From: Escherichia phage Eps7
Sequence record: NC_010583.1
DNA: 64,000 nt
Direction: 5' to 3' (one strand)
Below, in pieces: positions 20,720-53,811 of this stretch. The position numbers were made by a program, and so were the translations under genes. The notes below the pieces were generated by a model, which saw only the letters and a program-made list of their open reading frames with translations, was not told the DNA's origin and made no database searches. Position 1 is the first letter of the stretch. Each line of letters opens with the position of its first letter.

Positions 20720-21122
20720 GTTTATTAACGGCCTCCAAAAATGCCTTCATTACTTTTACTGTTGCAGTGCTAAGATCTAAGGTAGCACCTAAGCACTCAG
20801 ATACAGCAGCCTGATAAGGGGCTTTTAGCCTGCCTTCCGGTACTTGTACTTTCTTATAGGTTTTCTTTTTGACTTTATCCAGCATCGTTTCAAGAACATT
20901 GAGAGGCAACTTCTGACCTTCAATATTCACGCCAAGCTCTTCCATTAGCATGGTATTTAAGTCAATACGAGTAAGTTTCTTGCCCTTGCTAGACATACGA
21001 ATTCCCGCCTTTTTCTCAAGTTTTGCACGCTCTGGTGAATCGAGGTCACGTAATGCGATGTTCAATTCATACGGAGCCATATTGTAATGGTTAGCCATCT
21101 GAGTGTAGTAACGATCTGACAT
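20712..21122 (-). CDS. hypothetical protein
   Basis: 136-aa ORF. Confidence 0.5.
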   Translation of the reverse strand: MSDRYYTQMANHYNMAPYELNIALRDLDSPERAKLEKKAGIRMSSKGKKLTRIDLNTMLMEELGVNIEGQKLPLNVLETMLDKVKKKTYKKVQVPEGRLKAPYQAAVSECLGATLDLSTATVKVMKAFLEAVNKHE

Positions 21123-21203
21123 TTGTGAAACTCCTCTGATTCAATTTATACAAATATTATATAAAAATTTACAGCGGACAGAGAAGTCAACTACTTTTTT
21201 ATA

Positions 21204-21620
21204 TTAATGTGCTTGATGTGGGAATCTCTTCCTAACTAGGTACATTGTTATTGGATATATTGAATACATAAGTATAGGGGAGAAAAGGGTGAAATAAGCC
21301 GTGACTCCCCCAGCTAACATCAGTGGTATCAATGCTAGAGTAAGGGCCATAAGAATCATACCGAATGAGACAGCCAGGGCTACTGTTATGCAGTTCTCTA
21401 ACTCCATCCAAAGCCAACAATATTTCGTATTTCTCTGGCAGTTGCATTTGCAAACGCCGAATGTGCCCATAATTATATACTCTAGCCCATGAACGACTTT
21501 CTTTAATGTGTCATTTTGGGTAACTAGTGCGACAACCGTAAGAATTATCATTAAAATGAAAACTACTAGGCTTATCTTCCATATTCCTAGTAACATCATG
21601 GTGAATAGTTCTGCAAACAT
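21204..21620 (-). CDS. multi-pass membrane protein
   Basis: 138-aa ORF with several hydrophobic segments. Confidence 0.5.
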   Translation of the reverse strand: MFAELFTMMLLGIWKISLVVFILMIILTVVALVTQNDTLKKVVHGLEYIIMGTFGVCKCNCQRNTKYCWLWMELENCITVALAVSFGMILMALTLALIPLMLAGGVTAYFTLFSPILMYSIYPITMYLVRKRFPHQAH

Positions 21621-21695
21621 GGCTTTCTCCTATCATTAAGTTTTTAAAGCCCCCTTTGCTTTAAAAGGCGGGAATTACCCCACCTTGATTTATTA

Positions 21696-22110
21696 TCAGA
21701 CTAATTCTACGTGACCACCGTCGTAAGTACCACGATCGATCTCATCATGATAATCACCAGAACTATTCCAGTCGGCACCAAAACGAAGTTTGACACCAAG
21801 TTCCTTACCAGCTTGTTCAAAAGCCTTCTTAACAGCCCAAAATGCTTCCAGATCTTTCCAATCAATCTTACCATTAATATATGGTGCAAAATCGATAGCG
21901 TCTCCAGTTACATGCTTACTTTTGCTAGGGTCTTTCAAAAATGAAGTACCATTAGCAATGTTTTGGGCACTTTGTGCTACTGTACGAATACCTTGTACGA
22001 TTGTGAAATCATATGGGGATAGTTCTAAAGCCCTACGAGCTACCTTTTGTAGCTCGGGCTTAACAGTTGCTAATTGTTTTTCGTCTTATTTTACCTAAAT
22101 TAAAACTCAT
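21696..22110 (-). CDS. lys: endolysin, L-alanyl-D-glutamate peptidase type; apparent +1 frameshift near 5' end
   Basis: C-terminal 80 aa (HVTGDAIDFAPY...GGHVELV) plus upstream out-of-frame start MSFNLGK; matches recalled T5 endolysin; ATGA overlap with upstream gene. Confidence 0.7.
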
Positions 22111-22761
22111 ATAGATCTACCTAATGATCTTTGCTGCGGTGAGCAAAGCTTTGTTAAGTACTCCTTAAATTGTTCCGAGTCAGCTGTATCTACGGGTTTA
22201 TCCTTCCAGGCAATACCTATGTATCCAGCATAGATATTATTTAGGTTGAAATACGGACAAGTATAGACGTAATTAAAAGTAACGTTCTTAAACGCGGGTA
22301 TATTTGACCCCATATATTTATTTACTTTTACACTTAAATCCGAAGCGTAGTTAAAGCCTTCCAGGTGACGTCTATAAAGTTCAGACGTCTTGTTTACTGC
22401 TTTATCGGCCAAGTCAGCCCTATCCAATTGCGCATTGCTTTCCCATGCAATAATGTTCGAATAATCGTTTATAGCATCGGGTTTATACTTGACTACAAAA
22501 ACAGCATCCGCACCCGTCTGAGAGAAAAGAACCATGCTCTTTTCTCGTGCTACATTAGGAAAGTTATCTATCCTTTGGGTTTGAACATCCTGTAAAACCG
22601 CAGACGTGAGAAGTCTTTAAAAATGACATCACCTCGCTAGTGTTACTTACAAACAAGAAAATAATGACAGCAACTAAGATAGTTAGCAGACGTTTTAGTA
22701 GCGAAGCTGGATCTTTCGCTTCTTGGAGCAGTACCGTTAATAGTTGTAGAAACTTTTCCAC
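22107..22761 (-). CDS. putative holin, frame interrupted
   Basis: ORFs 22564..22761 (N-terminal TM) and 22107..22535 with frame continuity across 22565-22616; coupled to endolysin start. Confidence 0.5.
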
Positions 22762-35729: not shown

Positions 35730-36025
35730 ATAATTTATTTACTCAGTTTTGAGTTTTTCGATAGCTTCCTCAACCTCTTTTAGAGCTTCACGACGGGCAT
35801 TCTGTTGCTGCATATCTTGAATTAATGTCAGTTTTTGTTTTTAATTTCTTGATCCCAAACCTTAATATTATTAATCAGACTATCACGATCAGCTTCTAGT
35901 CGAGCAATTGCACGAGTTGTCATATCTATTTCCTCAGTTATTAATGAAAATGGTATCTGTGACTGAATTCAATATCAGTAATGATAGCTGGTTGGCTACC
36001 GGTTTACTTAACTCTACACAGAATA

Positions 36026-38270: not shown

Positions 38271-38608
38271 TTAGCGAATCTCTAAACCCTGGAAATATCG
38301 AGGGAATGGAGAGCCAACTTCAAAATTGATGCCCCAATTAAGTTCAACGAGTTCAGATTTATTAAGATCTAGGCCATTACCTTCAAAGATATAGCCGTAA
38401 ACCGCAGGGAACATAGCTGCTAGATCTTCCATATCGGAATGAGCATTGTGTTCTTCACGGAACTGCTCAACTCTTCAATAGAACTTTTCTAGGAGACTCA
38501 GGTACGATGAACGTTACCACATCAGTAGAATCATCGGTACGATACACCGTAGCTTGGAACAAGCCAACACCTAAAAGGTTTATTGCCGGAGTAGTAAAAA
38601 TATCCATC
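38271..38608 (-). CDS. hypothetical protein, frame interrupted near 38470
   Basis: two adjacent protein-like frames (MDIFTTPAINLL... and ...EQFREEHNAHSDMEDL...) each below track threshold. Confidence 0.35.
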
Positions 38609-41450: not shown

Positions 41451-42395
41451 TTACTTGTTACGCATATCCATGATCATTTGACCATCGTAGCCAGTACCAA
41501 CAACAGTCTGCGGTACACCACCTTGTATTTTTCAGCACGAAGCATTTCAAACTTCCAGCTGCTTCCAACGAATCATTTCAGGAGTAATGGTACGTTGCAG
41601 CGCGGCGTTAGCTTCAGCTTCTTTCTTAGCTGCGTACAGTTTAGCATCTGCGTCACGTTCGTTAGCTACTGCCATGTTTTCACGAGCAGAACGATCAGCT
41701 TCAGCTTGCTTAACTTTCTGCTGTGCTTCTTGTTCAACACGAGCCAATTCAGCTTTAGCGGCGTTAACTTGTTCTTCACGAACTTTTGTGTTTTGTACCT
41801 GTTCCATGATTACAGGTGGCAGAGTAATATCCTGAAGGAATACTTGCTTAACCGTGTAACCATAAGGACGCGCGTACTCTTCTACTTCTTGCTGAATAGC
41901 AGTTTGCAGTTGAGCCTGAATCTTAGCGTCGAACAGATCTTGTGCTTTTGGTACAGACTTACCAAACTCACGAATCGTAGATAGCATCTTCTCTTCAACG
42001 TACTTGTTCAGAGCTTGATCCTGAGTACCTGCGTTAACACGGTTCATAGGAGCTTTAGCACCATCAAACTGCAACATAACGGTAATGTCAACAGTGGACT
42101 TAAACTTATCCTGGCTAGGAACCTGAAGTTTATCCAGTTTCATGGAAATATCTTTCGTACTAAAAGTATCAAAAGAAGCAAATGGGTTAACAATATGGAA
42201 GCCTGGCAATACAGGATTAGGGCTAACTTTACCCAGGAAGGTTTGGGTCTTAACAGTACCATCCTGAACAACTGTGTAGGAATTGAGAGCCAGAATAAGA
42301 GCGCCAAGACCAACTACAGCACCAACACCCCAACGTTTGATAGTGCGAATTACTTTTTGCTCAGAAGTCAGTTCTTTAGTGTTTTTAGTAAACAT
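41451..42395 (-). CDS. SPFH/band-7 (stomatin/prohibitin-like) membrane protein, C-terminus frame-shifted
   Basis: 282-aa ORF with N-terminal TM and long Gln/Ala coiled-coil region; protein-like frame continues to stop near 41451. Confidence 0.5.
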
Positions 42396-42708: not shown

Positions 42709-43805
42709 TTTAGGTATTTTTAAGAACTCTTATAAAAGCTCTTAAAGATACCCGACGGTAGGTAGGGTCAGCCCCCTCAGATTAAGCTCTGCAGCCCTTC
42801 CGTCAGACAATATCTTCCAGTTTAAGTCAGGGTGACTTTGTGGTTATGTTCTCCGTATGTGAAGAACTCGGTTAGGCTTAGGTCATGACTCCCAGCCTAC
42901 TGCTGCCACTCAACAGGAATTATCGCGAATTACCTGTACTATTGGGCACCATTAGTGACATCTCTCATGTCAGCGTTTCCCACTCTCATATTCACGCGGT
43001 CTGTTAGAATCGCACCTCCGATTTTCGATGCGAAGCTGGATGCCTAGTCTCAGGTTAAACGGGGCACACACTAGGCAGTGATCCCGAGTTCCGAGTTTGG
43101 TTGAGGCCGTCAGGTTTCCTCGTGGTTTAGCTGTTTCGATTCTAACCTAATACTGATCAGGTGGCGTACCTCCTGAACCGTCATAGTATGTACTCCAGCA
43201 GCGAATGCTTATCCGGTATAAGCCCGAGTTATCCGATTCTTTCCAGAAGGAGCAGTAAAGCTCAATGTCAGCCTGTGAGCATCTGGCAGTGTTATCACAT
43301 AAGTCAGTTCGACACCCCACATTTTAGTGCCTGGTAGATCCCGAATGAAGCCCTCAGTCGTTAGACCTCCATCATTCATCAAAGATTTACGCTACCCACT
43401 ATTCGATGGACAATCGCCGCATTGTGGTATACATACGTTTTCACTTGCATCCTAGACGGGTCAGCGTTGAAAGTTATATGGGTTTCTCAAGCCCAACCTT
43501 CAGTCTTCTACCCCTGGGACACGCACCGTATTTCACACTGTGCCTAGCTCCTGTTGAGACCCATCGTTTTGTATAAATTAGAGAAGAGTTTAGAGGAGAG
43601 GTTTCAGACGCCTCATTTTACAAGAAGTCTCGAACCTATATTCGTTACTCTAGTCACTTGGCCGGATATACCGGACTGGACTCGGAACTCTAACAGGTGA
43701 TCATTCTTAACCCACCGACTCTATTCAGTGTCAGAAGCTATCACTAGGTGAATCGCTAAAGCTCACTCAGCGTAATCGGCTCGCTGTTCTCTAATTTATG
43801 AATCT
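42709..43805 (-). other. ~1.1-kb ORF-free, G+C-elevated segment transcribed from an early promoter (candidate large non-coding RNA or foreign insert)
   Basis: no ORF of 60 codons or more in six frames; sampled G+C ~45-52 percent versus ~30-40 percent in flanks; promoter at 43806-43834 points into it. Confidence 0.4.
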
Positions 43806-43842: not shown

Positions 43843-44286
43843 TTAATTAAATTCGCCAGCAACCTGAGCAGCAATGCCACCATCGTAACGACCAGGAAAC
43901 TCTTCCTTAATCGCTTTCATCAGCATACCCTTTGTAATCCCAGGATTCAACTTAACTAATTCTGCAAAGTATTTGCGAATCTCAGAATCAGATAACTGAG
44001 GCGGCAGATACTGTTGTAGCCATTTGTTCAGTATATATTCATACTGAGCAGACTGCAAGCTATAATTATCAAGGTCTTGACCGTGAAGTTTAGCTTTTGT
44101 CTGATTAATGCTTTTCAGTTGAGCTTTTAGATAAGATACAAACTGTTCAGAAGTAATGAAGTCTTTATCAACACGCTGAAGATCTCCGATTATAGTCTGG
44201 TAGCTTTTAGCTACTTCTTTATCAGAACCATCAACCTTAGATTCCTGCAAAGCCCTACGCAAAACATCTAGAATATTCTCTTCCAT
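43843..44286 (-). CDS. GatB/YqeY-domain-like protein
   Basis: 147-aa ORF; recalled resemblance of C-terminal region to YqeY family; TAATG overlap with upstream small ORF. Confidence 0.45.
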   Translation of the reverse strand: MEENILDVLRRALQESKVDGSDKEVAKSYQTIIGDLQRVDKDFITSEQFVSYLKAQLKSINQTKAKLHGQDLDNYSLQSAQYEYILNKWLQQYLPPQLSDSEIRKYFAELVKLNPGITKGMLMKAIKEEFPGRYDGGIAAQVAGEFN

Positions 44287-44456
44287 TATTTAATTCCCAG
44301 TGCTTGGTTAAAAGATTGTTCTGTCATAACTGCCGAGACTTTAGCGAAATCAAACTTCTTAGGGTTTGTAGTAATTTCAGCAACGTTAGTAGTTTTAACT
44401 GTTTTCGTAGTACGGATACCACGAGTATTAACACCAATAATTACAACTGATTTCAT
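44286..44456 (-). CDS. small hypothetical protein (56 aa)
   Basis: ORF below track threshold, 32 nt downstream of promoter. Confidence 0.4.
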   Translation of the reverse strand: MKSVVIIGVNTRGIRTTKTVKTTNVAEITTNPKKFDFAKVSAVMTEQSFNQALGIK

Positions 44457-44524: not shown

Positions 44525-44992
44525 TTAAGTTTTCTTAACCACAGGCTTGTAGAACGTATGGCCTTGAATCTTCGTTGTTTTCTTAAACTTCTTTGTCCAG
44601 TACGGTTTATCTTTACCACTATGGAAGTATAACGCTCCATGTGTTGGATCTTGTGGTAAATCAACGTAGTATATCACTCTAGCTAAATTCTTAGCAACTT
44701 GCCAAGCCTCATCGGTTTTATCAACTTTTGGTCTCTTGGCCACCCAAGAGAACTGGTTAGACTGATATACTACTTTACAGTAAGAATCAGGAAAGTACCA
44801 GAGTTAACACGGTTTTTTAGTAACCTGTGCAACTGCGATCATTCCTTTAGTGCCCTCACCTCGTGCTTCGAAGTAGATATTTTTTGCAATGCAATCAATC
44901 TGCTTTGAGTCGTAGGTCGCATGACTATTGAAGCTATAGGTTAGGGCAGCTATTAAAAGCAAAGCTGCCTTCATTTTATTTACTCCGGCCAA
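44525..44992 (-). CDS. SleB-like cell wall hydrolase with signal peptide, frame interrupted
   Basis: ORFs 44804..44992 (signal peptide, NIYFEARGE) and 44525..44743 (HGALYFHS); intervening frame reads VNSGTFPDSYCKVVYQSNQFSW. Confidence 0.5.
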
Positions 44993-45297
44993 TCGTACTC
45001 AATACGATTAGGGCTTTCTTGATACCCTTCGTCTAAGAGATCATTACGCATGGTCTCTTTAGCTACTGGGTTCGAGGTTACTAGTACCACTTTCTTGGGT
45101 CTCTGACCAAATTCTAGGAGTAAACGAAGAATTTGATAACCTTCCATACCATCTACAGCCAGATCGTTATCCATATAAACGAAATGACCTGTGGTATCGG
45201 TTTTATTCAGAAACTCAATAGCGGCTTCGGGGGTTCGAATGATAATGTCCATTCCATGAAGGTTACGTACATCATCAATCAGAATATGAAAAATCAT
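44980..45297 (-). CDS. receiver (REC/CheY-like) domain protein candidate
   Basis: 105-aa ORF with ILIDD ... YMDNDL ... VVLVTS ... K spacing resembling response-regulator receiver domains. Confidence 0.4.
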   Translation of the reverse strand: MIFHILIDDVRNLHGMDIIIRTPEAAIEFLNKTDTTGHFVYMDNDLAVDGMEGYQILRLLLEFGQRPKKVVLVTSNPVAKETMRNDLLDEGYQESPNRIEYDWPE

Positions 45298-45327: not shown

Positions 45328-45356
45328 ATTATACAGAAAACTAAACTAATTAGCAA
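45328..45356 (-). promoter_or_regulatory. sigma70-type early promoter
   Basis: ATTATA 45328-45333, TAGCAA 45351-45356, 17-bp spacer. Confidence 0.6.
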
Positions 45357-46612: not shown

Positions 46613-47385
46613 AATTATTTTCCTTTTGTTGTTCTCTCAAATTTATGAATATATTATACAGAATTTGGAGCTGAAAGCAAATCAAATTTTGATTTTTTTC
46701 GATCATGATGGCTACACAATAACTTTCAACTAAAGCATCGAATGCGGGATCATGTTTCACTGGATAGATTCCATAACGAATGGTATCCATCTTTTCCATT
46801 TTAGCTTTTGCCCAGCTAGCACCTTCGGCTTCTAGATCTTTATAGCTATAACCAGCTTGCATCCACTGATTACGGAAAGATCGAACGTTACCTAAGTTCC
46901 AGAATTTCCACGGAACTATTTCTTCATGGGTTCCGGCATGGAACGTATTTGCAGAGTAGATTGTCATATCAAACTCTGGGCCATTGCCGTAATACAGAGC
47001 ATTATCTCCTAGAGACAATTCCATAATGTTCTGAGCCATAGAGAAGGCAGCATAATTAGAGCCTACGTCATTAGTGCAGTGATGCTTACCATCACGGAAG
47101 GCAATCAGTTTAGGATTACGACCATTTAGAGCCTCCATAATATGGAGCGCAGATGGACTGTTTTTTAGCTTGATCCATCCAGAATGCAATAGTAGAGGCA
47201 GTTACCTTAGCACCCGCATTAAGCTGATCTTGAACGTCTAGAGTAACGAATACCAGATCAGGATCTTTATCAATTCCGTGCATCGCTACAAAAGCGAAAG
47301 AAGGCATTGCAATATGAGTAGTACCGCAATTTCCTGGAGTACCTAGAGATTCAATGTCCAGCATACCAAAGGGCTTGAATTTCAT
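46599..47385 (-). CDS. putative exonuclease-like protein, frame interrupted
   Basis: ORFs 47116..47385 (MLDIESLG acidic motif) and 46599..47189 overlap; 3' end of downstream piece runs into promoter. Confidence 0.4.
46653..46680 (-). promoter_or_regulatory. sigma70-type early promoter
   Basis: ATTATA 46653-46658, AAGCAA 46675-46680, 16-bp spacer. Confidence 0.55.
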
Positions 47386-50682: not shown

Positions 50683-51537
50683 TTACACCGTAAATGGATA
50701 TGCAATAGCAGGATGGTGTTCATAGCCACGAACAGTAAAATCATCCTTACTTACCCACGTTAATACATCATCCAAAGTTCTAATATTTGGATTGATTTCT
50801 AAAGTAGGAGGTGCAAAAGGTTCACGATCGAATTGCTTGTGCTCCATCAGAACATTATACTGATCTTCATAGATATGAAGATTAATAATCTTTTGACGAG
50901 CAATACCTGGCTTAAGACCTGTAATCTGTGCCATAATAGCTAGAAGTGCATAGCATTGCACCATATTAAATACTTGGCCCAGCAAGAAATCATTAGACCT
51001 CTGGAAAGAGTTTAGGTATAGTGTATCACCTAAAATAGAGAATTGATGGGTATGCATACACGGACGTAGGCATCCTTTACGAAATTCCCCACGGGTTCCA
51101 AAAGTTAAAATTTCTCCACGATCGTCAATCCCTCTTTTCAAATTATGATAGACTTTGGCTAACTGATCAAATACCATACCATCAGAATTAGTCCAATGAC
51201 GTCCTTGAACACCATAGACTCGTCCCATATCATCCTCGCCTTTACGGAATGGATTACCTAGCCAGGCAATATTTTCATTTGCATTAGCATTCCATGTATT
51301 AACACCAATAGCGCGGAATTGTGCTGCTGAGTCGTACCCACGGAGATATCCGATCATTTCCATTATTGCTTGTTTAGCAAATGCTTTACGAGTAGTTACT
51401 AGCGGCAGTTCTCCTGCTCCTACGTTAAAGGTAAAGTCTGCATCAATAATGGTTAGGCAACGAACCCCTGTTCTAGGATTCGTTACCCATACACCCTCTT
51501 CAAGAATACGTTTTCCAGTTTCAATATATTGCTTCAT
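50683..51537 (-). CDS. thyA: thymidylate synthase
   Basis: 284-aa ORF with catalytic-Cys region [10 protein letters not shown]; adjacent to DHFR and RNR genes. Confidence 0.8.
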
Positions 51538-52062
51538 TTAAATATCACCAATTCTTGTAAGAATGAAAGCGTTTTATCTGCATTCTGTCCTGCCACATAG
51601 TCCATTCTAGTTGCCATTGAATTATAAGTAATATGATGATGCAGATGTACATCAGCAGATAATGGTGTGGCTGAAGTAATAGTAGAGATATACGCCATAT
51701 CTAGATGATTTTTTGACATACATTTCAAGAAGCAGAGTTGCTCCCCCTAATACTACAGTTACCTCTTCCTTGAGAAAATCAGGCAGACGGTATCCAATGT
51801 TGCTTATGCGTGTAGCTGATCTTATAGAGTTCGGTAGTGGTCTATTTGCATAAATAAATAGGTCAGAATCTCCTAGTATTCTTTTTTGCAGAGTCTCAGG
51901 GAATGCTAACCAAGTTCCTGCTCCTACAATAATATTGTCAGGTGCCAGAGAATCCAATGTAGCATAGAAGATATCTAGTTCTTCTTTGAAAGAACCCCAG
52001 GGGAGCTTACCATTGAGGCCGAACTCCCCATTCGGCCCAGTTGCATAGATTGCTGCTATCAT
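51534..52062 (-). CDS. dihydrofolate reductase, frame interrupted near 51700
   Basis: N-terminal MIAAI...GKLPW DHFR motif; two overlapping frames 51652..52062 and 51534..51728. Confidence 0.6.
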
Positions 52063-53273: not shown

Positions 53274-53756
53274 TTATAAACTATCAAGCTCCAATAGTTT
53301 AGCATCGCGCCATTCTATAGCATCCTCTAATTCTTTAAATGTTTTAGTATGTTTTACACCTTTCCTAGCTATTTGGACTTGATAAGATCCACTTGCTTTT
53401 TGGTGTATATTTTTAATACCTAACTTATTGTCCTTATGTGCTCCAACGTTCTTTCCATTACTAAATCTGTTAGAGGCTAGTAAATTAATTGCTCTATTAT
53501 CATGACGTATTCTATTATCATGATCTACTTCTTTTGGGATGTACCCATGCGTAATATAGAATGCTAGGATATGTGCGTAGTATTTTGTACCTCTTACCTG
53601 CATTACTATGTATCCTGAGCATTTTTCCAAAGAGCCTGCCTCTTTGCCTGCAAACTTAGTATTAAATGATTTATCTTCTCTAGGTTTGTGGGTAAAGATT
53701 CCGGTTTCTGGATTATAGTCAAATAACTCAGCTATTTCTTTGTATTTTTCTTCCAT
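53274..53756 (-). CDS. HNH homing endonuclease
   Basis: 160-aa ORF with HNH motif EVDHDNRIRHDNRAINL; located between nrdA and nrdB. Confidence 0.7.
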   Translation of the reverse strand: MEEKYKEIAELFDYNPETGIFTHKPREDKSFNTKFAGKEAGSLEKCSGYIVMQVRGTKYYAHILAFYITHGYIPKEVDHDNRIRHDNRAINLLASNRFSNGKNVGAHKDNKLGIKNIHQKASGSYQVQIARKGVKHTKTFKELEDAIEWRDAKLLELDSL

Positions 53757-53811
53757 AATCTAAAATTACAGCCATTATAGGCCTAATAAAGGGGCTTTCG
53801 CCCCTTATTTA

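What the first reader, a model, noticed from the sequence alone, without database searches (positions are those of the whole stretch)
44525..44992. Secreted SleB-like cell-wall hydrolase in addition to the endolysin
After frame correction the ORF has a signal peptide and SleB-family motifs (NIYFEARGE ... AVAQV..NR ... QFSW). It would be a second, exported peptidoglycan hydrolase distinct from the L-Ala-D-Glu peptidase endolysin at 21696-22110.
Basis: partly seen in the sequence, partly recalled or inferred. Interest (0 to 1): 0.4.

Follow-up and report, generated by a model that had tools for sequence, protein, structure and literature searches.

The report
Known T5-phage SleB-like wall hydrolase gene
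This is the well-conserved, already annotated "SleB-like cell wall hydrolase" gene of T5-like phages, a small exported peptidoglycan-cutting enzyme separate from the main lysis enzyme, and its apparent break in this sequence is most likely one of many single-base errors in the record.

Summary
On the minus strand, 44525-44974 encodes a 149-aa protein once two single-base length changes 21 bases apart are undone (an extra base in a run at 44813-44818, a missing base in a run at 44792-44794). The repaired protein matches Pfam Hydrolase_2 over its whole length (E 4.8e-26). Its model matches only the SleB catalytic domain among solved structures. It keeps the catalytic Glu and groove residues and starts with a classic cleavable signal peptide.

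It is not new. The window is a T5-like phage (Epseptimavirus). About 390 phage records carry the same region over most of its length. All those examined have an intact 450-nt gene, often annotated "cell wall hydrolase SleB". Two papers already note it as a second lytic ORF far from the holin/M15-peptidase cassette.

The frame break is specific to this window. The window has 28 such private indels in 16.7 kb, and they break 7 of 31 conserved genes, as well as the canonical endolysin and the holin. The break is therefore almost certainly a sequencing error.

The most likely function is a Sec-exported periplasmic lytic transglycosylase made from the early region. Its role in infection is untested. 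Interest is low.

The parts
44525..44974 (-). SleB/CwlJ-family (Pfam Hydrolase_2) cell wall hydrolase gene, 149 codons plus stop after undoing two 1-nt length errors. As written it stops after 56 codons.
44918..44974 (-). Codons 1-19, predicted Sec signal peptide MKAALLLIAALTYSFNSHA, with predicted cleavage after SHA.
   Evidence: Inspection plus hydrophobicity scan. Orthologues keep small residues at -3/-1 (SHA, AYA, SQA, VQA), and 52 of 55 homologues have an N-terminal hydrophobic stretch. No SignalP run.
44867..44869 (-). Codon 36, Glu36 in YFEARGE. It aligns with the catalytic glutamate of Bacillus SleB (YGESRGE).
   Evidence: (invariant in 55 homologues)
44813..44818 (-). Homopolymer run one base too long (A6 on the coding strand, A5 in all relatives examined). 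It throws codons 53-60 out of frame, including invariant Arg55.
44804..44806 (-). TAA stop codon created in the shifted frame between the two indels.
44792..44794 (-). Homopolymer run one base too short (T3 on the coding strand, T4 in relatives). It returns the reading to the original frame.
45328..45356 (-). Sigma-70 promoter-like site TTGCTA-17-TATAAT upstream of the four-gene block. This is a consensus match only.
44980..45297 (-). Upstream gene of the block, 105 aa, cREC_REC receiver-like domain. Its stop is 5 nt before the hydrolase ATG.
44286..44456 (-). Downstream gene, 56 aa, DUF7616.
43843..44286 (-). Last gene of the block, 147 aa, weak YqeY-like match (25.4 bits, just under the 27-bit cutoff).

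Best explanation
The window is a T5-like phage (Demerecviridae, Epseptimavirus, close to species EPS7). Region 44525-44974 (minus strand) is the family's conserved single-domain SleB/CwlJ-type cell wall hydrolase gene. It is the second gene of a conserved four-gene block in the early/tRNA region. The apparent break (+1 in an A run, -1 in a T run 21 bases on, with a TAA between) is an error of this sequence record, not biology. The intact protein most likely works as follows (inferred). It is made from an early sigma-70 promoter and exported by Sec. Signal peptidase I cuts it after Ala19, giving a basic 15-kDa periplasmic enzyme (pI 9.7), possibly stabilised by a Cys28-Cys66 disulfide. It cleaves the MurNAc-GlcNAc glycan bond as a lytic transglycosylase, with Glu36 as the single catalytic acid and Arg55, Tyr116 and His139 lining the groove. 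Because it reaches the wall without the holin, it would nick or thin the sacculus during infection. It would thus complement the holin-dependent cytoplasmic M15 L-Ala-D-Glu peptidase at lysis. Shown here: homology, fold, residue conservation, signal-peptide anatomy, synteny, and the error profile of the record. Inferred: export, cleavage site, disulfide, bond specificity, timing and role.
For: Identity: Pfam Hydrolase_2 91.8 bits, E 4.8e-26, full profile. PHROG 938 'endolysin' E 1.8e-30. PDB sequence hits are only SleB catalytic domains 4F55/4FET. The AF2 model has pLDDT 92, and Foldseek finds only 4FET/4F55 (probability 1.0, TM 0.72-0.80 on the target). C28, Y34, E36, G44, R55, C66, V68, Q74 and H139 are invariant in 55 homologues. 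E36-R55 spacing (19) equals E203-R222 of the B. subtilis SleB catalytic groove E203/R222/Y278/H301 (PMC13556211). A single glutamate is essential for SleB transglycosylase activity (PMC12331253). Export: n-h-c signal peptide with a conserved -3/-1 pattern in orthologues, and 52 of 55 homologues have an N-terminal hydrophobic segment. Activity on ordinary Gram-negative wall is plausible because in Yersinia phage PYps3T the homologue sits directly after the holin as the cassette endolysin, and Hydrolase_2 is a common lysin domain in phages of Gram-negatives (PMC8223927). Artefact: 501 nt are identical to relatives except the two run-length changes. No phage record among 439 shares them (best 99.6%). 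The window variant is absent from IMG/VR while the canonical one is present. There are 28 window-private 1-nt indels in 16.7 kb. They break 7 of 31 conserved genes, including thymidylate synthase and DHFR, as well as the canonical endolysin and the holin. Synteny of the block is kept in T5 proper, Bas26 and OSY-STA.
Against: No read data are available, so a genuine lesion in this isolate cannot be formally excluded. No signal-peptide predictor was run, and the model's coordinates could not be inspected, so the cleavage site and the disulfide are inferences. Bacillus SleB needs muramic-delta-lactam, which enterobacterial peptidoglycan lacks, so substrate and bond specificity cannot be transferred directly. 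No paper found here reports activity, export or a phenotype for the T5-like protein. An actively exported glycan-cleaving enzyme made early might be expected to lyse cells prematurely, so some control or a non-lytic role may exist.
Confidence: 0.85

Rival explanations
1. The gene really is broken in this phage isolate (a pseudogene). The phage then makes only a 56-aa secreted stub and relies on the M15 endolysin alone.
For: The sequence as given has the stop. The gene lies in the early/tRNA region, where gene content differs between relatives. Truncated versions (96 and 102 aa) exist in other records (P0028, P0033), which hints that the gene may be dispensable.
Against: The same record has private 1-nt indels at 1.7 per kb that also break the endolysin, holin, thymidylate synthase, DHFR and a metallopeptidase. 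A plaque-forming phage is unlikely to carry all of these. The two changes are a +1/-1 pair in homopolymer runs inside 501 otherwise identical bases, and no other record or IMG/VR contig shares them.
Confidence: 0.08
2. The exported SleB-like protein is not a lysis enzyme. It is an early periplasmic remodelling factor, for example altering the wall to change cell growth or division, to exclude superinfecting phages, or to free progeny from wall debris. Lysis would depend only on the holin/M15 cassette.
For: The gene is 23 kb from the lysis cassette, in a block with a receiver-like cREC_REC protein, DUF7616 and a YqeY-like protein rather than with holin or spanins. It has its own export signal, so it does not need the holin. 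T5-like phages already make another early envelope-directed protein, the lipoprotein Llp (PMC4319617).
Against: Nothing tested here separates this from an auxiliary lysis role. Homologues serve as the cassette endolysin in Chaseviridae. PHROGs and most annotators file the family under lysis.
Confidence: 0.3
3. The break is decoded by programmed recoding: a +1 shift at ACT-AAA-AAA-C followed by a -1 shift about 20 nt later.
For: The first indel sits in an A-rich run, and the two shifts cancel, so the downstream sequence is back in the original frame.
Against: Relatives 99.6% identical have a plain open frame, so there is no conserved recoding site. Two successive shifts in opposite directions would be needed. 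The same kind of paired indel occurs all over the window in unrelated genes.
Confidence: 0.01
4. The protein keeps the SleB fold but is catalytically dead and acts only as a wall-binding protein.
For: The native substrate of Bacillus SleB (muramic-delta-lactam) is absent from the host. No activity data exist for the T5-like protein.
Against: The catalytic Glu and the groove Arg and His are invariant, and the Tyr is kept, across 55 homologues. Homologues occupy the endolysin slot next to a holin.
Confidence: 0.05

Closest known systems
'Cell wall hydrolase SleB' of T5-like phages (e.g. AKFV33 orf081, T5_ev212 'SleB putative cell wall hydrolase', Bas26 bas26_0074, Salmonella phage SE20 'spore cortex-lytic enzyme precursor')
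   Same: 87-100% identical protein, same length (149 aa), same neighbours and orientation. Already described as a lytic ORF of the early region (PMC3326045) and as a second 'endolysin' far from the holin (PMC11180984).
   Different: Only the two single-base run-length changes in this window, which are most likely errors.
Bacillus spore cortex-lytic enzyme SleB, catalytic domain (PDB 4F55, 4FET), and CwlJ
   Same: Same fold (Foldseek probability 1.0, 29-31% identity). Same catalytic Glu and groove Arg/Tyr/His. Like CwlJ, it is a single catalytic domain.
   Different: No N-terminal PG_binding_1 domain and no YpeB partner. The NCBIfam SleB equivalog score is 54 against a cutoff of 236.5. It has a Sec signal peptide and two invariant Cys that Bacillus SleB lacks. 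The host wall has no muramic-delta-lactam.
Hydrolase_2 endolysins of other Gram-negative phages (Chaseviridae PYps3T ORF083, Nankokuvirus PAK_P3 gp151, rV5-like 'SleB')
   Same: Same domain, 35-46% identity, and an N-terminal hydrophobic export segment in each one examined.
   Different: In PYps3T the gene directly follows the holin and is the cassette endolysin. In T5-likes it is an extra enzyme alongside a separate holin/M15-peptidase cassette.
Signal-peptide or SAR (signal-anchor-release) endolysins such as P1 Lyz and phage 21 R
   Same: Holin-independent, Sec-dependent delivery of a muralytic enzyme to the periplasm.
   Different: Those are lysozyme-fold enzymes held inactive in the membrane until depolarisation. 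Here the N-terminus looks like a short, cleavable type I signal (19 aa, SHA|T) rather than a 20-plus-residue Gly/Ala-rich SAR anchor. This rests on inspection only.

Membership tests
Pfam Hydrolase_2 (PF07486), SleB/CwlJ catalytic domain | Profile match above the gathering score over the whole domain | tested here: met
   Corrected protein 91.8 bits against 27, profile 1-100/100. As written, only the C-terminal ORF passes (30.9 bits).
Pfam Hydrolase_2 (PF07486), SleB/CwlJ catalytic domain | SleB catalytic-domain fold | tested here: met
   AF2 pLDDT 92. The only significant PDB matches are 4FET/4F55, with TM 0.72-0.80 on the target.
Pfam Hydrolase_2 (PF07486), SleB/CwlJ catalytic domain | Catalytic glutamate and groove Arg/Tyr/His | tested here: met
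   E36, R55 and H139 are invariant and Y116 is kept. Aligned to YGESRGE...LNR of SleB. Groove residues named in PMC13556211.
Pfam Hydrolase_2 (PF07486), SleB/CwlJ catalytic domain | Lytic transglycosylase activity (1,6-anhydroMurNAc products) | not testable with these tools
   Needs purified protein and muropeptide analysis.
True spore SleB (NCBIfam TIGR02869 equivalog) | Score above the equivalog cutoff | tested here: not met
   54 bits against 236.5. Only the C-terminal half of the model (78-201) is matched.
True spore SleB (NCBIfam TIGR02869 equivalog) | N-terminal peptidoglycan-binding domain | tested here: not met
   Single-domain 149-aa protein. Only Hydrolase_2 passes its Pfam cutoff, and there is no PG_binding_1 hit.
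Canonical holin-dependent phage endolysin | Encoded in the lysis cassette next to the holin | tested here: not met
   The holin and M15 peptidase are at about 21.7-22.8 kb, and this gene is at 44.5-45.0 kb.
Canonical holin-dependent phage endolysin | Membership of a phage lysis protein family | tested here: met
   PHROG 938 'endolysin', E 1.8e-30.
Sec-exported protein with cleavable type I signal peptide | Basic n-region, 10-15-residue hydrophobic core, small residues at -3/-1 | tested here: met
   MK / AALLLIAALTYSF / NSHA|T. Kyte-Doolittle 9-residue maximum 2.99. The pattern is conserved in orthologues. Heuristic only, no SignalP.
Sec-exported protein with cleavable type I signal peptide | Demonstrated export and cleavage | not testable with these tools
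   Needs PhoA/Bla fusions or N-terminal sequencing.

The most novel reading that the evidence does not exclude
The exported SleB-like enzyme of T5-like phages is not an auxiliary lysin. It would be an early periplasmic effector with a distinct job, such as wall remodelling that conditions the cell, blocks rival phages or defences, or acts together with the adjacent cREC_REC receiver-like protein. It would belong to a disulfide-bearing, muramic-lactam-independent subfamily of SleB/CwlJ enzymes whose chemistry has never been measured.
Probability: 0.25. Interest if true: 0.45.

Novelty: already known. Interest (0 to 1): 0.1.

Why it matters
For this window it matters little. The gene is a routine, widely annotated component of T5-like phages, and the odd frame structure is a data-quality issue. 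Two practical points follow. First, ORF calls anywhere in this window should be checked against relatives, because about one gene in four is broken by private single-base indels. Second, nobody appears to have tested what a Sec-exported SleB-fold enzyme does in a Gram-negative infection that already has a holin/endolysin pair. That is a modest open question about T5 biology and a possible source of small, basic, outer-membrane-facing lysins.

Tried and rejected
1. Programmed frameshifting at the A run was rejected, because near-identical relatives have a plain ORF and the same paired indels occur in unrelated genes.
2. The TTG at 44992 as start was rejected. It overlaps the upstream gene, while the ATG at 44974 has a GGAG 9 nt upstream and is the start annotated in relatives.
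3. I looked for the window's own record or any record sharing the indel pair. There is none in the phage collection (best 99.6%) and none in IMG/VR.
4. I searched the literature for activity, export or phenotype data on the T5-like protein. I found only annotations and the 'two endolysin ORFs' remark. The HIDEN-SEQ preprint does not mention the gene. Neither the CRISPRi-ART paper nor its supplements mention it.
5. The SleB structure paper PMC3415495 is not held. Catalytic residues were taken from PMC12331253 and PMC13556211 instead.
6. The Cys28-Cys66 disulfide could not be checked, because model coordinates are not returned. The only support is that both Cys are invariant in 55 homologues and are present or absent together in five more distant sequences.

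Full report
**What is in the sequence**

On the minus strand of 44525-44992 there are two ORFs in the same reading frame. One spans 44804-44992 (62 aa from a TTG) and the other 44525-44743 (72 aa). A single TAA at 44804-44806 separates them.

- The first ORF carries MKAALLLIAALTYSFNSHA...NIYFEARGE...AVAQV.
- YCKVVYQSNQFSW lies in the same frame, in the stop-free stretch just upstream of the second ORF's listed GTG start.
- The expected 'KNRVNSG' between them is readable only in a neighbouring frame.

**What the correction is**

The window is a T5-like phage. A 1-kb query around the site hits 439 phage records, 389 of them over at least 80% of its length. The hits are Salmonella and Escherichia Demerecviridae, best at 99.6%.

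In Bas26 (GreteKellenberger), SpoonbillGilly, OSY-STA, NG_S8 and STK8t the site holds one intact 450-nt CDS. An alignment of 501 nt shows the window is identical to Bas26 and SpoonbillGilly except for two run-length changes on the coding strand. A5 has become A6 and, 21 bases downstream, T4 has become T3. The +1 creates the TAA and the -1 restores the frame. Undoing both gives exactly the 149-aa protein of the relatives.

The true start is the ATG at 44974. It has a GGAG 9 nt upstream and lies 5 nt after the stop of the preceding gene.

**Error or real lesion**

I compared the window with three relatives over the 16.7 kb that all three cover.

- There are 28 single-base indels private to the window, 14 insertions and 14 deletions. 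Twenty sit in otherwise clean context, 13 are in runs of three or more bases, and many form +1/-1 pairs.
- Of the 31 OSY-STA genes mapped onto the window, 7 carry frame-disturbing indels only in the window. They include a lipoprotein, a metallopeptidase, dihydrofolate reductase and, as a compensated pair that creates no stop, thymidylate synthase.
- In the lysis cassette, the canonical endolysin has a +1 at 22084. The holin has two 1-nt deletions at 22607 and 22610. Both are relative to PSa2 (species EPS7, 99.2% identical) and Bas26.

A plaque-forming phage is very unlikely to carry all of these. No other record shares the pair in the hydrolase gene. The exact window variant is absent from IMG/VR, while the canonical version is present. 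I conclude, at about 0.9, that the break is a sequencing or assembly error. Only reads or resequencing can settle it.

**What the protein is**

- The corrected protein matches Pfam Hydrolase_2 (PF07486) end to end: 91.8 bits, E 4.8e-26.
- It matches PHROG 938 'endolysin' at E 1.8e-30.
- By sequence it finds only the SleB catalytic domains 4F55 and 4FET in the PDB.
- An AlphaFold model built on 55 homologues has pLDDT 92. Foldseek against the PDB returns only those SleB structures, with probability 1.0 and TM 0.72-0.80 on the target.

Across the 55 homologues, C28, Y34, E36, G44, R55, C66, V68, Q74 and H139 are invariant. E36 aligns with the glutamate of YGESRGE in SleB. A single glutamate is essential for SleB's lytic transglycosylase activity (PMC12331253). 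The B. subtilis catalytic groove is given as E203/R222/Y278/H301 (PMC13556211). The phage E36/R55/Y116/H139 match this in order, and the Glu-Arg spacing is the same, 19 residues.

It is not a true spore SleB. The NCBIfam equivalog scores 54 bits against a cutoff of 236.5, and there is no peptidoglycan-binding domain.

**Export**

The N-terminus has the anatomy of a type I signal peptide: MK, then AALLLIAALTYSF, then NSHA|T. Orthologues diverge in sequence but keep small residues at -3/-1 (AYA, SQA, VQA, TFA). Of 55 homologues, 52 have an N-terminal hydrophobic stretch and 3 have lipoboxes. More distant phage homologues (PAK_P3, PYps3T, an rV5-like phage) also start with a hydrophobic segment.

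The two invariant cysteines are absent from Bacillus SleB. In the few distant sequences examined they are present or absent together. This fits a periplasmic disulfide, but I could not check it in the model. The mature protein would be 130 aa and 15 kDa, with pI 9.7 and a lysine-rich tail. That matches the trait reported for Hydrolase_2 lysins of Gram-negative phages (PMC8223927).

**Context**

The gene is second in a block of four minus-strand genes:

| Gene | Coordinates | Match |
|---|---|---|
| cREC_REC receiver-like | 44980-45297 | 56.7 bits |
| the hydrolase | 44525-44974 | Hydrolase_2 |
| DUF7616 | 44286-44456 | DUF7616 |
| YqeY-like | 43843-44286 | weak, 25.4 bits, below cutoff |

A TTGCTA-17-TATAAT promoter-like site lies at 45356-45328, which is only a consensus match. 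The block is kept in T5 proper and in Epseptimaviruses. It lies in the early/tRNA region, about 23 kb from the holin/M15-peptidase cassette.

In the Chaseviridae phage PYps3T, by contrast, the homologue follows the holin directly and is the cassette endolysin. This indirectly supports the idea that this domain can act on ordinary Gram-negative peptidoglycan, even though Bacillus SleB requires muramic-delta-lactam.

**Likely mechanism**

My best reading:

- The protein is exported by Sec, cleaved after Ala19 and folded in the periplasm.
- It cuts glycan strands as a lytic transglycosylase with Glu36.
- It is therefore independent of the holin.
- It supplements the cytoplasmic L-Ala-D-Glu peptidase, which must wait for the holin.

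All the biochemical steps are inferred. The main functional rival, at about 0.3, is an early wall-remodelling role unrelated to lysis.

**Known or new**

It is known. tblastn finds the protein in 1449 phage records, with about 520 T5-like records at 60% identity or more. Many are annotated 'cell wall hydrolase SleB', 'spore cortex-lytic enzyme precursor' or 'endolysin'. Niu et al. 2012 list it among the early-region lysis-related genes of AKFV33 (PMC3326045). Guzel et al. 2024 explicitly report two 'endolysin' ORFs in T5-like Salmonella phages, an M15C peptidase by the holin and a SleB-domain protein far from it (PMC11180984). I found no experimental work on the T5-like protein.

**Verdict**

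- The feature is ordinary and already annotated.
- The only window-specific peculiarity is a record error.

Noticed in passing
window 35700-56000 and 21100-22700: The window carries many private single-base indels: 28 in 16.7 kb compared with three relatives. They often come as +1/-1 pairs a few to about 45 bases apart, and about half are in homopolymer runs. Frame-disturbed genes are 35739-35923, 38271-38607, 41451-42395 (lipoprotein), 46682-47385 (metallopeptidase, two +1), 50683-51537 (thymidylate synthase, a compensated pair) and 51534-52062 (DHFR). ORF-based findings elsewhere in this window should be read with this in mind.
   Followed up: yes
window 21696-22110 and about 22107-22761: The canonical M15 endolysin has an extra base at 22084 that separates its first 8-9 codons from the rest. 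The holin has two 1-nt deletions at 22607 and 22610. Both are intact in PSa2 (species EPS7, 99.2% identical) and Bas26.
   Followed up: yes
window 21171-21183: A 1-nt plus a 5-nt insertion (A; CAGAG) relative to PSa2 and Bas26, in the spacer between two minus-strand genes downstream of the lysis cassette.
   Followed up: no
window 44980-45297 (-): The gene immediately upstream of the hydrolase (stop 5 nt before its ATG) is a 105-aa stand-alone cREC_REC 'cyclic-phosphate processing receiver' domain protein (56.7 bits). The pairing is conserved in T5 and Epseptimaviruses. Its function is unknown.
   Followed up: partly
window 43244-43709 and 53275-53808: These segments did not align by megablast with the close relatives OSY-STA and STK8t. 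The first did align, heavily gapped, with NG_S8. Neighbouring sequence is 97-100% identical, so these may be variable or mosaic insertions. Their content was not examined.
   Followed up: no
L011 (Yersinia phage PYps3T) 1991-2908: In this Chaseviridae phage a 186-aa SleB-like protein with an N-terminal hydrophobic segment and both conserved Cys follows the holin directly. The same domain is therefore the primary endolysin there.
   Followed up: partly
alignment A2, columns of C28 and C66: Two cysteines are invariant in all 55 homologues from Gram-negative phages and metagenomes but absent from Bacillus SleB. This suggests a disulfide-stabilised periplasmic subfamily of Hydrolase_2.
   Followed up: partly
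proteins P0028 (102 aa) and P0033 (96 aa, Klebsiella phage vB_Kpn_3): Other public records also hold truncated versions of this hydrolase. These could be further sequencing errors or occasional real loss of the gene.
   Followed up: no
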